IMG/VR virus record: IMGVR_UViG_2671180651_000017
Reading direction: 5' to 3' (one strand)
Origin: a virus
Taxonomy: Duplodnaviria; Heunggongvirae; Uroviricota; Caudoviricetes
DNA length: 9,540 nucleotides
Shown here: piece after piece, positions 3,678-6,379 of the stretch
Position numbering within the stretch: position 1 is the stretch's first letter
How the letters are laid out: each line of letters starts with the position of its first letter
Notes under the pieces: generated by a model
Databases searched by the model: none
Told to the model about the DNA's origin: nothing
The model's input: only the letters and a program-made list of their open reading frames with translations
Made by a program: the position numbers and the translations under genes

Positions 3678-5426
3678 TTATAAAAACGCGTCACAATCAT
3701 CCGTTGTAATTGCGTTGGTCTGCGTTACTCCCTTAACTTTTCGCGTAATATATTCATGTCCGTAAACTTTCGCCGCTGGCTTCATGGCCTTGCTGAAATC
3801 AGCCACGTTTAGCGGCTTGCTTCTTCCTGCGTATGCCATAAACGCCAGATAGACGCGGTAAAGGCTGTTTCTGGTCGTGTACTTCACGGAATCGCCACCG
3901 CCACCCATCATCAGGCCGCGCGCTTCCTCCAGAAAATTCAGGAACTGGCAAAACTCAATAACCGGATCTGTCTGTTGCTTTATCGCCAGTGCTTCATCAC
4001 CGTCGCGCTGTTCCAGTAATAAAGCCCGTGCCTTTTCAGGGTCAGCAAAATTAGCCAGCAAGCGGCGGATAATCACAGGGATTTCAGCCGCGACCTTCTC
4101 CGGCAAATCCTTGTCCTTTTCTGCCTCGCTAACGATATTGTCAAAGCGAAAAATAACCCGACGACGTGCCACGCCTCCGGCCCGTTCGGTGAATATCATC
4201 GGGTTGTTGTTGGTCGCCAGCACCACCGCCCTGATTACCGCCGTGAAACGCTTTTCATATTTCGGGTTAATTTCCACGGGGTCGCCGCCCGTGATTTTCT
4301 TGATGCCCGTTCCTTCGCCTGTATATTTCGGCTGGTCAGCCAGGACGATAAGACGACTCCCGACAACCTGCGCGCGCCCTCCTGCATCATCGAGTGATGT
4401 CATCTCCGCGCTTACGGTGTTCTGTTTCCCTGCCAGAAGGCTGGCTATGTGTGTGAATGTACTTTTACCGCTCCCGCCGTCTCCGGTGGCCTCAATAAAC
4501 ATCTGCCAGTCGTACCGGTTCGCCATAATCATGTACAGCGCGGCACATATACGCATCATCTTGCGCGGGTCTTTTCCGGCTGCGTGCTCAAGCCATTTAT
4601 GAAAGTTTGGCGCGTTGTCGCGAATGTTCTCCCCTGGTGCTGGTGGCGTGTACTCAATGCCGTTGTGCGTGGTGATCCAGTTCTCCGGCGTGTGCGGGGA
4701 AAATTCCCCCGTTTTCAGGTCAAGTGCACCATTGGCGAACGGCAGCAAATCGCCGGACGGCTCCCCCATTGGTTCGGCAATAACTTTTAACGCTTCAACG
4801 GCGTTATTGATCACGCGTTTGCTGAAAGTGGCCCTGTGCTCTGAATAGATCGCCACCATTTCGCGGCTAAGTTCCATTGTGCTGACCGGACACCATACCC
4901 CGCCGCGCCATACGTGAACGATTTCACTTTCAGGATGTACGCAAACGCCATCAAAGCGATCGGCAAGCAGCTGGGCGCGCTCACTGTCTGCCATTTGTGC
5001 CAGTTGCGTATTTTTCTGCTCCGGCATGGTAAGCCCTGCGGCAATATTTTCACGCTCAGCATTCAGATAGCGCCGCCAGTTTTCACACTTCTGACCGTGC
5101 ATTCCTTCGGGGTAAAATTTTGCATCCTGTACGCCTGCCGCCGCCAGCTTCTGACCAATCTTTTTGGTCTCCACCAAGTCCAGTTCTCCTGCCTGGTACA
5201 GCCTTACGCGTTTTTTTCCATCAGGAACAATTTGCAGTGCATAAAGTTCGGCAAGCTGATTTGGCCCAAGCCACACAGGAGGCACATTATCGCCGGATGC
5301 GGGGCCGTCCTGCTCCTGCCACTGTTTTGCATGTGCCCACGCATCACTACCCGCGAAAATAATCACCTCTGTGTCTTTGTGTTTTATTCCGCGTGGCTGT
5401 TTTTTTACGTTCGGTGCCAGTTTCAT
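3678..5426 (-). CDS. Replication initiator: primase / SF3-helicase (P4 alpha / D5-like NTPase family)
   Basis: 582-aa ORF. Walker A GDGGSGKST (encoded around 4458-4486) in the context FIEATGDGGSGKSTFTHIASLLAG, and a Walker B-like RLIVLADQP. Start ATGA overlaps the upstream ORF stop. Iterons lie immediately downstream. Confidence 0.8.
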   Translation of the reverse strand: MKLAPNVKKQPRGIKHKDTEVIIFAGSDAWAHAKQWQEQDGPASGDNVPPVWLGPNQLAELYALQIVPDGKKRVRLYQAGELDLVETKKIGQKLAAAGVQDAKFYPEGMHGQKCENWRRYLNAERENIAAGLTMPEQKNTQLAQMADSERAQLLADRFDGVCVHPESEIVHVWRGGVWCPVSTMELSREMVAIYSEHRATFSKRVINNAVEALKVIAEPMGEPSGDLLPFANGALDLKTGEFSPHTPENWITTHNGIEYTPPAPGENIRDNAPNFHKWLEHAAGKDPRKMMRICAALYMIMANRYDWQMFIEATGDGGSGKSTFTHIASLLAGKQNTVSAEMTSLDDAGGRAQVVGSRLIVLADQPKYTGEGTGIKKITGGDPVEINPKYEKRFTAVIRAVVLATNNNPMIFTERAGGVARRRVIFRFDNIVSEAEKDKDLPEKVAAEIPVIIRRLLANFADPEKARALLLEQRDGDEALAIKQQTDPVIEFCQFLNFLEEARGLMMGGGGDSVKYTTRNSLYRVYLAFMAYAGRSKPLNVADFSKAMKPAAKVYGHEYITRKVKGVTQTNAITTDDCDAFL

Positions 5427-5722
5427 TTTTTACCCCTGAATACGTTAAGCATCTTTTTTATTTCCTGAATATTGGCGCGTGCTTTCTCCCTGCTGGTTGG
5501 CTTACTGCGGGGCGCTGCCTGTACCAGAGAAAAATCACGGTTGAACTGATAAACAGGCATAACGCAATCATATTCGTAGCCTTCACGGCGGTAAGTTACG
5601 CGCCGTTCCTCCACGCCCTTAATCATTACCGTGCCGCCGTACTTATCGCGGTAAATATCCCCGCACATGAATTTAGTGCGAGTTTTGCCGCTGGCAGTTA
5701 AGCCAGAATATTTAAGTTTCAT
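5423..5722 (-). CDS. Hypothetical protein, 99 aa, translationally coupled to the primase
   Basis: ATG at 5722 with GGAGAA upstream. Stop overlaps the primase start in ATGA. Basic protein (K/R-rich); no motif recognised. Confidence 0.55.
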   Translation of the reverse strand: MKLKYSGLTASGKTRTKFMCGDIYRDKYGGTVMIKGVEERRVTYRREGYEYDCVMPVYQFNRDFSLVQAAPRSKPTSREKARANIQEIKKMLNVFRGKK

Positions 5723-5727
5723 TATTT

Positions 5728-5988
5728 TTATTCTCCGATAGCGTGACCTGATAAGCCGTTAATCTTCTCTGATATGCTCTCTATTTTGCTGGTGGAAATA
5801 TTCAGTAATTCAGAAATGGCAAAGGTTAATCTTGTCGTTGACTCGTCACGCTCGCAATTTGTCAGCGATTCAAACCAGACGTTAATAATCTCACTTACGG
5901 CATTGTTGTAAGATATTGCGCTTTGTGTGAGTTCATTCAATTCGCAAATTACGCGTTTGTTATTGTTCATAGCGTTTAAATCTCTCAT
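5728..5988 (-). CDS. Hypothetical protein, about 86 aa, AT-rich (foreign-looking composition)
   Basis: Track ORF 5728..5991 begins at a TTG; the ATG at 5988 is the likelier start. The sequence is visibly more AT-rich than the flanking genes. Confidence 0.45.
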   Translation of the reverse strand: MRDLNAMNNNKRVICELNELTQSAISYNNAVSEIINVWFESLTNCERDESTTRLTFAISELLNISTSKIESISEKINGLSGHAIGE

Positions 5989-6379
5989 CAATTAACCACA
6001 GCGCAACACTTCCAGAAAGTTTTGCCAGAAGGCCAGCTAATGCGGATATATCACCATCATTTAATTTATTAGGGTACACCTCAAGAAGTCGGCAAATAAT
6101 TTCTGTCTGGTGCGCACGTTCAGCGGCTTCGTGTAATGTAATTTCCTTCATTAATGCCCCCCCTTTTAATTCATGTACTGCTGCAATAATTACATGTGAT
6201 AAACCTGCTTTACCGGAATTACTGATTACTGAATCAATCGCCGCTTGCATATTAACGGCCTTCACGTTCTGCGTGATGCCAACGGTATAGCCGCGCTTGT
6301 TAACAGCACGGGAAAAAACGCGGAAGGTTTTAAGCACGGCACACCCCCTGACGAATACGGGCGACAAATACAGCAACAC
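5960..6379 (-). CDS. Hypothetical protein, first gene of the replication operon (start uncertain: GTG 6379 or ATG 6250)
   Basis: Track ORF starts at a GTG (6379). The internal ATG at 6250 has GAAGG upstream and would give 96 aa. No motif recognised. Confidence 0.45.
   Translation of the reverse strand: MLLYLSPVFVRGCAVLKTFRVFSRAVNKRGYTVGITQNVKAVNMQAAIDSVISNSGKAGLSHVIIAAVHELKGGALMKEITLHEAAERAHQTEIICRLLEVYPNKLNDGDISALAGLLAKLSGSVALWLIDERFKRYEQ

What the first reader, a model, noticed from the sequence alone, without database searches (positions are those of the whole stretch)
5423..6379. Three small unknown proteins coupled upstream of the primase, one AT-rich: candidate helper-interaction module
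The three ORFs form a tightly packed operon with the primase (overlapping or 5-bp-spaced junctions). None has a motif I recognise, and the middle one is AT-rich. In P4 the genes just upstream of the primase include the helper-derepression factor epsilon. By position these are candidates for helper derepression or interference or replication accessory functions.
Basis: inference. Interest (0 to 1): 0.5.

Follow-up and report, generated by a model that had tools for sequence, protein, structure and literature searches.

The report
Satellite early operon: RgdR and partners
The "three unknown ORFs" are really four small genes in the early operon of a known kind of E. coli phage satellite (a PICI); one is a close homologue of the published virulence regulator RgdR, and two others probably match genes that a preprint links to phage-triggered growth arrest, so the region is mostly already described.

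Summary
The ORFs exist and are tightly packed with the primase, but the reading needs correcting.

- **The element.** The window is a 9.3-kb PICI-type satellite, 100% identical over the 1,381 bases compared to STEC chromosomes, inserted between cspD/yljB and clpS.
- **ORF 5423-5722** is a 99-aa DUF4222 protein, 94% identical to RgdR of O-island 51. RgdR is a published regulator of LEE type III secretion and motility. The window copy carries CGD instead of the RGD motif.
- **ORF 5728-5970** (80 aa, 38.7% GC) is a narrow Escherichia family of unknown function.
- **ORF 5960-6379** is not one gene. Its first 14 codons overlap an unnoticed Icd-like gene (6330-6533). The rest is two genes, C1 (61 aa) and C2 (63 aa), fused in frame by a length-variable G run (7 G here; 6 G gives separate genes).
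- **Conservation.** The same module, icd-C1-C2-B-rgdR-replicase, is present in EDL933 O-island 51.
- **Function lead.** In strain ECOR61, transposon hits that suppress phage-protein-triggered growth arrest lie in an Icd-like gene and two ORFs. Their lengths and overlaps match C1 and C2 exactly.
- **P4 epsilon.** None of the ORFs is related to it.

Verdict: a new member of a known kind. The molecular roles of C1, C2 and B remain unknown.

The parts
6632..6711 (-). Candidate promoter and operator region of the early operon. Sigma-70-like promoter with -35 TTGACG at 6671-6666 and -10 TAGTAT at 6648-6643, bracketed by three direct GTGGCTGACA repeats at 6632-6641, 6657-6666 and 6702-6711.
   Evidence: three exact copies against 0.46 expected by chance. 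EcCICFT073 has the same layout with a different repeat, GTGGGCCACACC.
6733..6912 (+). Divergent YlcI/YnfO-family gene (59 aa). Candidate regulator of the early promoter (inference).
   Evidence: NCBIfam NF041551, 62 bits against a cut-off of 30. Annotated by PGAP. 66% identical to the EcCICFT073 counterpart.
6330..6533 (-). Icd-like gene (67 aa), first gene of the operon.
   Evidence: NCBIfam NF033153, 63.5 bits against a cut-off of 25. phrog_6196. Annotated by PGAP.
5960..6337 (-). C1-C2 in-frame fusion ORF (125 aa) as it stands in this window. C1 starts at the GTG at 6337, overlapping the icd-like gene by 8 nt.
   Evidence: Separate 61-aa and 63-aa genes in the 6-G state. The C1 part is annotated as a pseudogene in the identical genome.
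6157..6163 (-). Homopolymeric G run (7 G) at the C1/C2 junction. It also serves as the likely ribosome-binding site for C2. Its length sets the reading-frame state: 6 or 9 G gives two genes, 7 G gives a fusion.
   Evidence: Among 5,426 complete genomes, 13 match the 7-G query and 17 the 6-G query at 99% identity or more. An 11-G run occurs in a diverged allele.
5960..6151 (-). C2 (63 aa), predicted as a helical hairpin at low confidence. It has its own ATG and ribosome-binding site, so it can probably still be made separately.
   Evidence: phrog_1478. The exact protein is listed in 2,816 blocks of the assembly collection, and all ten places shown were this island. 94% identical to the EDL933 OI-51 orthologue and 53% to the EcCICFT073 one. 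Structure model.
5728..5970 (-). B (80 aa from the ATG at 5970; an alternative ATG at 5988 would give 86 aa). AT-rich, narrow family, function unknown.
   Evidence: phrog_5796. One real homologue cluster among 1.84 billion representatives. 69% identical to the OI-51 orthologue with dN/dS 0.24. Distant homologue in the same position in EcCICFT073.
5423..5722 (-). RgdR-family DUF4222 protein (99 aa), CGD variant. Overlaps the primase start by 4 nt.
   Evidence: PF13973, 85.7 bits. 94% identical to EDL933 RgdR. Literature. Structure model: SH3/Tudor/KOW-like barrel plus a C-terminal helix.
3678..5426 (-). Pri-Rep replicase (582 aa): D5_N, DUF5906 and P4-family primase C-terminal region, behind an unannotated N-terminal domain of about 140 aa.
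   Evidence: 40% identical to P4 alpha over 432 aa. The N-terminal domain is shared with DUF927 and RepA-type replicases that also follow rgdR.
7047..7271 (-). alpA (74 aa). AlpA is the activator of the cycle in Gram-negative PICIs.
   Evidence: PF05930, 59.3 bits. Literature.

Best explanation
Window 5423-6379 is the middle of the early operon of an OI-51/EcCICFT073-family PICI, a phage-inducible chromosomal island.

**Gene order on the minus strand.** Promoter with three operator-like repeats, then the Icd-like gene, C1, C2, B, the RgdR homologue and Pri-Rep. In this copy C1 and C2 are fused by a +1 G in a homopolymer.

**Shown**
- The gene content and its conservation.
- The RgdR family assignment.
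- The fusion.
- Purifying selection on all four genes.

**From the literature, for homologues**
- AlpA, whose expression is induced by a helper phage, switches on the PICI genes.
- RgdR is a small pleiotropic transcription co-factor. It activates LEE1, represses motility, and binds DNA weakly and non-specifically.

**Inferred mechanism**
- On a phage cue the operon is transcribed as one unit.
- The Icd-like protein, with C1 and C2, arrests host growth or division. The ECOR61 transposon suppressor hits support this.
- The RgdR-like protein is always translationally coupled to the replicase, so it is likely a replicase or transcription co-factor. Its effect on LEE would then be a side effect of its role in the satellite.
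- B is an accessory protein of the same unit. Its role is unknown.
For: **Identity and context**
- 100% DNA identity over the 1,381 bases compared to STEC chromosomes; the annotated locus there shows the island between cspD/yljB and clpS.
- att direct repeats 9,297 bp apart.
- int, alpA, the Icd-like gene, DUF4222, a P4-family primase, a small-terminase-like gene and a capsid-like gene are all present.

**The same module elsewhere**
- EDL933 O-island 51 has identical gene lengths (186, 192, 243, 300 nt) and identical junctions. Protein identities to the window are 66% (C1), 94% (C2), 69% (B) and 94% (RgdR).
- EcCICFT073 has icd, a C2-like gene, two other small genes, a B-like gene, c1493 (its RgdR homologue) and the primase.

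**RgdR**
- Flockhart et al. (PMC3378721) and Fillol-Salom et al. [quoted passage not shown]
- DUF4222 DNA is found in 1,416 of 5,426 complete genomes. In seven of eight rows sampled across the ranking it lay with a replicase gene: primase family, RepA helicase or DUF927. In the loci annotated in detail it abuts the replicase.
- These replicases share only their N-terminal ~140 aa: 76% against 18% for the rest in EDL933.

**ECOR61**
- Suppressor insertions lie in QOYT01000045.1:8940-9132, 9131-9317 and 9309-9675 (Icd-like). That is 192 nt and 186 nt, with overlaps of 1 nt and 8 nt, exactly as for C2, C1 and icd.
- Six linked genes including a primase were needed to reconstitute the effect.

**Coding status and fusions**
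- dN/dS 0.24-0.34.
- In-frame C1-C2 fusions arose at least three times by different mutations.
Against: - The ECOR61 link rests on gene lengths, overlaps and annotation only. The contig could not be fetched, and its Icd-like ORF is annotated at 366 nt, a start that none of my loci reproduces.
- That work is a preprint, and the reconstituted effect was described as muted.
- Transposon insertions can be polar on downstream genes.
- C1 and C2 are separable. EcCICFT073 lacks C1 and an E. albertii element lacks C2 and B, so they are not an obligate pair.
- No PICI-cycle phenotype has been reported for rgdR, C1, C2 or B in the papers I read. In EcCICFT073 only genes downstream of the origin were tested for interference.
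- The structure models are of moderate confidence: mean pLDDT 73, only one of five models confident for C1, and C2 at 51-72.
- No expression data were available.
Confidence: 0.6

Rival explanations
1. Dedicated replication accessory proteins. The small proteins, above all the DUF4222 protein, would help Pri-Rep load at or recognise the island origin, with no role in host arrest.
For: - rgdR overlaps the replicase start by 4 nt (ATGA).
- It precedes replicases of three unrelated catalytic types that share only an N-terminal ~140-aa domain.
- RgdR shows weak non-specific DNA binding.
- Its model is an SH3/Tudor/KOW-like barrel, a fold common in nucleic-acid and polymerase-associated proteins.
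Against: - RgdR expressed alone from a plasmid changes host LEE and motility gene expression, so it acts away from the island origin.
- The ECOR61 suppressor hits were in icd, C1 and C2 but not in the much larger primase gene.
- C1, C2 and B are dispensable in some islands that keep rgdR and a replicase.
Confidence: 0.2
2. These would be P4-epsilon-like helper-interaction factors that derepress or interfere with the helper phage.
For: - The position matches P4's epsilon, orf151 and orf106, upstream of alpha.
- They are small, variable proteins, and set membership differs between islands.
- The phage-protein-dependent phenotype in ECOR61.
Against: - No hit to Pfam PF25738 (the epsilon family) and no significant match to epsilon, orf151 or orf106.
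- In Gram-negative PICIs the helper induces the island through alpA, rather than the island inducing the helper.
- EcCICFT073 interference maps to rppA, downstream of the origin.
- The divergence of B and C1 reflects old alleles under purifying selection (dS about 0.85, dN/dS about 0.25), not positive selection.
Confidence: 0.1
3. Accessory (moron-type) virulence cargo. RgdR and its neighbours would be carried for the host's benefit, as LEE and motility regulators, and would not be part of the satellite's own cycle.
For: - RgdR activates LEE1 and type III secretion. Deleting O-island 51 lowers adherence and shedding in sheep.
- The PICI literature lists RgdR among the accessory genes.
Against: - The gene sits inside the core operon, overlapping the replicase start, not in the int-alpA or 3' cargo positions.
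- It is present in 26% of complete E. coli genomes, including CFT073 and ATCC 25922; that these two strains lack LEE is from my own knowledge, not a tool result.
- The window copy has C20 in place of R20. The ED1a variant with C20 did not activate secretion, although R20C in the EHEC protein did not abolish it.
Confidence: 0.1

Closest known systems
RgdR (ECs1581) of EHEC O157:H7 O-island 51 / CP-933C; Pfam DUF4222 (PF13973)
   Same: - 99 aa and 94% identical.
- Same position, 5 nt after a B homologue and overlapping the replicase start by 4 nt.
- Same upstream module: icd, C1, C2, B.
   Different: - Six substitutions: P6S, D10A, R20C, Q27K, H45R and R61N. The name-giving RGD motif reads CGD here, as in the ED1a variant.
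- The downstream replicase is a D5_N/P4-type primase here, and a DUF927 protein in OI-51.
EcCICFT073, the model Gram-negative PICI (Fillol-Salom 2018, 2019)
   Same: - int, alpA, a divergent ylcI/ynfO-like gene, and a promoter with repeats.
- icd, a C2-like gene, a B-like gene, the RgdR homologue c1493 (85% identical) and the primase (91% identical).
   Different: - EcCICFT073 lacks C1 and has two other 73-aa genes.
- Its operator repeat sequence differs.
- Its annotated genes after the origin differ: an SSB gene, a PerC-family gene, a capsid gene and a head-decoration gene. The window island instead has its own Terminase_2-type small terminase and a 307-aa capsid-like protein. The literature places EcCICFT073 interference in rppA, after the origin.
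- The integration site differs.
ECOR61 'prophage-encoded superinfection exclusion system' (Silas et al., bioRxiv 10.1101/2023.04.06.535777)
   Same: - An Icd-like gene followed by ORFs of 186 nt and 192 nt, with 8-nt and 1-nt overlaps.
[quoted passage not shown]
   Different: - Sequence identity could not be checked.
- Its Icd-like ORF is annotated longer, at 366 nt.
- In the window C1 and C2 are fused.
Satellite phage P4 left operon (vis, Ash-family ORF, epsilon, orf151, orf106, alpha)
   Same: - The layout: small genes between an AlpA/Vis-type regulator and a primase-helicase.
- alpha is 40% identical over 432 aa, and Vis is 43% identical to AlpA.
   Different: - No homology between the small genes. 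Epsilon belongs to PF25738 and orf106 to DUF5375.
- A weak hhalign alignment of orf151 to DUF4222 has only 11% probability.
- No CI/C4-type RNA was found in the window, and no sid, delta or psu.

Membership tests
RgdR / DUF4222 (PF13973) | Pfam DUF4222 match above the gathering score | tested here: met
   85.7 bits against 27, E = 1.5e-24, residues 18-68.
RgdR / DUF4222 (PF13973) | 99-aa protein closely similar to ECs1581 | tested here: met
   94% identity over 99 aa to the EDL933 copy. That copy's sequence matches the residues listed by Flockhart et al..
RgdR / DUF4222 (PF13973) | RGD motif at residues 20-22 | tested here: not met
   The window has C20-G21-D22. Across 40 homologues G21 and D22 are invariant, while position 20 varies (R, C, N, P, S, H, K).
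RgdR / DUF4222 (PF13973) | Activates LEE1 and type III secretion, and represses motility | not testable with these tools
   Needs expression in an EHEC rgdR mutant. Published variant data on C20 are mixed.
Gram-negative PICI (EcCICFT073 / OI-51 type) | Integrase at one end, followed by alpA in the same orientation | tested here: met
   int at 8133-9356 and alpA at 7047-7271, both on the minus strand.
Gram-negative PICI (EcCICFT073 / OI-51 type) | Pri-Rep replicase | tested here: met
   D5_N, DUF5906 and TIGR01613.
Gram-negative PICI (EcCICFT073 / OI-51 type) | Small size (15 kb or less), flanking att repeats, and no lysis or tail genes | tested here: met
   Direct repeats 9,297 bp apart. The only phage-like genes are a small-terminase homologue and a capsid-like gene.
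Gram-negative PICI (EcCICFT073 / OI-51 type) | Induction, packaging and transfer by a helper phage | not testable with these tools
   Needs experiments.
P4 epsilon / helper derepression protein (PF25738) | Sequence match to the Derepression family or to P4 epsilon | tested here: not met
   P4 epsilon hits PF25738 at 170 bits. No window ORF hits it, and blastp and phmmer against epsilon give nothing significant.
P4-like satellite | sid, delta and psu genes and a CI/C4-type immunity RNA | tested here: not met
   No Rfam family match at E of 1 or less apart from one chance snoRNA hit. No such genes among the ORFs or the PGAP annotation.
ECOR61 Icd-like growth-arrest locus (Silas et al.) | An Icd-like gene followed by two small ORFs (186 and 192 nt) with 8-nt and 1-nt overlaps, linked to a primase in a six-gene unit | tested here: met
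   The architecture is identical in the 6-G state. In the window the two ORFs are fused.
ECOR61 Icd-like growth-arrest locus (Silas et al.) | Sequence homology to the ECOR61 genes, and triggering by orf24 | not testable with these tools
   Contig QOYT01000045.1 is not in any searchable collection, and no sequences are given in the supplements.
Known anti-phage defence systems (PADLOC) | Match to a defence-system protein model | tested here: not met
   No hit for icd, C1, C2, B or A. Only a marginal hit for the primase (E = 0.0039).

The most novel reading that the evidence does not exclude
The Icd-like protein with C1 and C2 would form a phage-protein-sensing growth-arrest switch built into the PICI replication operon, and a hypermutable G tract would toggle its state between two proteins and one fusion protein. 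The DUF4222/RgdR protein would be a co-factor of the shared N-terminal domain of PICI replicases, with its effects on host virulence genes arising as moonlighting. If so, the 'prophage superinfection exclusion system' of ECOR61 and the EHEC regulator RgdR are two faces of one satellite early module.
Probability: 0.2. Interest if true: 0.6.

Novelty: new member of a known kind. Interest (0 to 1): 0.33.

Why it matters
- **RgdR in context.** RgdR-family genes are in about a quarter of complete E. coli genomes. In the literature they are treated mainly as virulence cargo. Their fixed, overlapping position in front of PICI replicases of three different types suggests a core satellite function that has not been tested.
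- **A link between two literatures.** Connecting the OI-51/PICI early operon to the ECOR61 growth-arrest locus would give a concrete set of genes (icd, C1, C2) for asking how Gram-negative PICIs sense phages and what they do to the host. That question is open in the PICI field.
- **A caution for annotators.** Homopolymer frameshifts at the junctions of small genes can produce plausible-looking longer ORFs.

Tried and rejected
- **Rfam** over the whole window found nothing relevant.
- **Phage collection.** DNA and protein searches found no match for the region or for the DUF4222 protein.
- **PDB sequence searches** found nothing for A, B, C1-C2, the replicase N-terminal domain, the small-terminase-like protein or the capsid-like protein.
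- **PADLOC** gave no defence-system hit.
- **Viral structure library (BFVD)** gave no significant fold match for the RgdR model.
- **Species-representative genome scan** with the DUF4222 alignment returned only two loci, so synteny could not be surveyed outside Escherichia and Shigella.
- **B and C2 are not paralogues** by profile comparison (0.2% probability).
- **P4 orf151 as a DUF4222 relative** was left undecided: hhalign probability 11%, and no Pfam hit.
- **Positive selection on B** was rejected (dN/dS 0.24).
- **Plus-strand antisense ORFs** (5393-5701, 5774-5911, 6245-6436) were set aside. They are unannotated and are explained by conservation of the minus-strand genes.
- **Reproducing the 366-nt ECOR61 Icd-like annotation** in my loci failed.
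Full report
**What the window is.** The region is 100% identical over the 1,381 bases compared (window 5380-6760) to at least ten STEC chromosomes. In NZ_CP027548.1 it lies between macB-cspD-yljB and clpS-clpA. Direct repeats at 76-148 and 9373-9445, spaced 9,297 bp apart, mark the ends of the island.

All main genes are on the minus strand:
- integrase, 8133-9356
- an unannotated AT-rich 257-aa ORF
- alpA, 7047-7271
- an Icd-like gene
- the small ORFs of the finding
- a P4-family primase, 3678-5426
- further small ORFs
- a Terminase_2-type small terminase homologue
- a capsid-like protein

. This is the gene content of a Gram-negative phage-inducible chromosomal island (PICI) as defined by Fillol-Salom et al. 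2018. It is not a P4-type satellite: there is no CI/C4-type RNA and no sid, delta or psu.

**Checking the observation.** The packing is real:
- The ORF at 5423-5722 overlaps the primase start by 4 nt (ATGA).
- A 5-nt spacer separates it from the middle ORF.
- The middle ORF overlaps the upstream one.
- The middle ORF is AT-rich, at 38.7% GC against 46.1% for the window.

Three corrections are needed.
1. The 139-aa ORF is a composite. It hits phrog_3672 at residues 15-72 and phrog_1478 at residues 77-138. In a genome one base shorter there are two genes, of 61 aa (C1) and 63 aa (C2), joined by TAATG. The window has 7 G at 6157-6163 where that genome has 6. NCBI's annotation pipeline (PGAP) marks C1 as a pseudogene in the identical genome.
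2. The first 14 codons, from the GTG at 6379, lie inside an Icd-like gene at 6330-6533 (NF033153, 63.5 bits against 25). C1 starts at the GTG at 6337, 8 nt before the icd stop.
3. The ORF next to the primase is not motif-less. It matches Pfam DUF4222 at 85.7 bits against a cut-off of 27.

**The G run.**
- Among fetched loci of this island the run is 6 G (seven loci), 7 G (five loci plus the window) or 9 G (one locus).
- Both the 6-G and 7-G states occur on more than one upstream sequence background.
- Among 5,426 complete E. coli genomes, 206 carry this junction. Thirteen match the 7-G query and 17 the 6-G query at 99% identity or more.
- Database proteins also show the third-frame state, which fits an 8-G run (inferred from the protein frame), and an icd-C1 fusion.
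- Diverged alleles carry independent in-frame C1-C2 fusions: one from a T insertion (L019) and one from an 11-G run (L020).

The fusion in the window is therefore a real, recurrent frame state of a mutable junction, not a distinct long gene. C2 keeps its own ATG and a G-rich ribosome-binding site.

**The ORF next to the primase is an RgdR homologue.** EDL933 O-island 51 (CP-933C) encodes RgdR (ECs1581). The EDL933 protein retrieved here has the residues described by Flockhart et al. (D10, R20, Q27, K35, H45, R61). The window protein is 94% identical to it, differing by P6S, D10A, R20C, Q27K, H45R and R61N.

Published properties of RgdR:
- It activates LEE1 and type III secretion.
- It represses motility.
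- It binds DNA weakly and non-specifically.
- The ED1a variant, which carries C20 and N35, is inactive on secretion unless C20 is changed to R.
- R20C in the EHEC protein did not reduce secretion.

The activity of the window variant (C20, K35) on LEE therefore cannot be predicted. [quoted passage not shown]

**The whole module is conserved.**
- O-island 51 has icd (198 nt), C1 (186 nt, 8-nt overlap), C2 (192 nt, 1-nt overlap), B (243 nt, 11-nt overlap) and rgdR (300 nt, 5-nt gap), followed by a DUF927 replicase with a 4-nt overlap.
- Protein identities to the window are 75, 66, 94, 69 and 94%.
- dN/dS is 0.24-0.34 for all four small genes. dS is about 0.85 for C1 and B but about 0.1 for C2 and rgdR. 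This points to a recombinational mosaic of old alleles under purifying selection, not fast adaptive evolution.
- EcCICFT073 has icd (69% identical), a C2 homologue (53%), two unrelated 73-aa genes, a distant B homologue (29% over 49 aa), c1493 (85%) and the primase (91%). It has no C1.
- An E. albertii element has icd, C1, a DUF4222 gene and a DUF927 replicase, and lacks C2 and B.

The constant parts are therefore the Icd-like gene at the start and the DUF4222 gene at the replicase. The genes in between form a variable set.

**Prevalence and linkage.**
- DUF4222 DNA is found in 1,416 of 5,426 complete genomes, with up to six copies per genome. B is found in 153 genomes.
- In seven of eight rows sampled across the ranking, the DUF4222 gene lay with a replicase gene: primase family, RepA helicase or DUF927. 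In the loci annotated in detail it abuts the replicase.
- These replicases share only their first ~140 residues. Identity to the window is 76% for the EDL933 DUF927 protein, 58% for the RepA type and 41% for the E. albertii protein, against 18% for the remainder in EDL933.
- That N-terminal domain has no Pfam or PDB match.

**Structure.** AlphaFold2 with shallow alignments gave mean pLDDT 73 for both jobs.
- C2 is a helical hairpin at low confidence, with only generic matches.
- These are fold resemblances only.
- B has one true homologue cluster among 1.84 billion representative proteins, no PDB relative and no detectable relation to C2.

**Functional lead.** Silas et al. (bioRxiv 10.1101/2023.04.06.535777) report that a T7-group accessory gene, orf24, inhibits growth of strain ECOR61.
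[quoted passage not shown] - Removing the Icd-like gene abolished it.
- Their Supplementary File 5 gives the hits as QOYT01000045.1:8940-9132, 9131-9317 and 9309-9675. That is 192 nt, 186 nt and the Icd-like gene, with overlaps of 1 nt and 8 nt, which is the C2, C1 and icd arrangement of this module.
- Other icd-bearing islands I examined have different lengths at these positions.

I could not fetch the contig, and the supplements hold no sequences. The homology is therefore an inference from architecture.

**Comparison with P4.** The window's primase, AlpA and integrase are related to alpha, Vis and Int (40%, 43% and 22% identity). None of the small proteins matches epsilon (PF25738), orf151 or orf106 (DUF5375). 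An alignment of orf151 to DUF4222 is too weak to use (11% probability).

**Conclusion.** The finding is the variable middle of a known PICI early operon. One gene belongs to a family with a characterised member (RgdR). Two genes are fused here by a homopolymer frameshift, and their probable ECOR61 counterparts are genetically implicated in phage-triggered growth arrest. One gene (B) remains an orphan. Helper derepression of the P4 type is not supported. The most likely working model is co-expression with the Icd-like gene and the replicase on a phage cue, giving host growth arrest (icd, C1, C2) together with a replicase or transcription co-factor (RgdR). Only the gene content, conservation and family assignments are shown here. 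The mechanism is inferred.

Noticed in passing
window 6632-6711 and 6733-6912: Three exact GTGGCTGACA direct repeats bracket a sigma-70-like promoter between the Icd-like gene and a divergent YlcI/YnfO-family gene. EcCICFT073 has the same layout with a different repeat, GTGGGCCACACC. This suggests element-specific operators, possibly for a repressor that has not been described in Gram-negative PICIs.
   Followed up: partly
window 7363-8136 (minus strand): A 257-aa ORF at 32% GC lies between int and alpA and overlaps int by 4 nt. It has no Pfam, NCBIfam, PHROG or PADLOC match. It sits in the usual cargo position and is a candidate accessory or defence gene.
   Followed up: partly
window 5007-5426 (primase residues 1-140); L017 3997-4416; L018 3297-3716; L016 4285-4704: Replicases of three catalytic types (D5_N/P4 primase, DUF927, RepA helicase) that follow rgdR share a conserved N-terminal domain of about 140 aa. 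It has no Pfam or PDB match. The remainder of the proteins is unrelated.
   Followed up: partly
window 180-873: Several repeat families lie downstream of the capsid-like gene, including CCCGATATGGTGATCCCCATATCG (two near-identical copies) and an 88-nt repeat at 223-310 and 760-847. They may be a packaging or replication site.
   Followed up: no
window 2581-2588 and 3400-3406: Two further homopolymer runs (8 and 7 bases of G or C) occur elsewhere in the island. One lies just upstream of the small-terminase-like gene's annotated start. Length variation there was not examined.
   Followed up: no
window 888-1811 and 1974-2462 (minus strand): The island carries its own Terminase_2-type small terminase homologue and a 307-aa HK97-like capsid homologue, and no PDB-sequence relative was found for either. 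Its packaging module therefore differs from the one described for EcCICFT073 (interference by rppA, downstream of the origin).
   Followed up: partly
P0012; L020 3170-3190: An icd-C1 fusion protein exists in the database, and a diverged allele has an 11-G run at the C1/C2 junction. Homopolymers at several junctions of this operon frameshift recurrently.
   Followed up: partly
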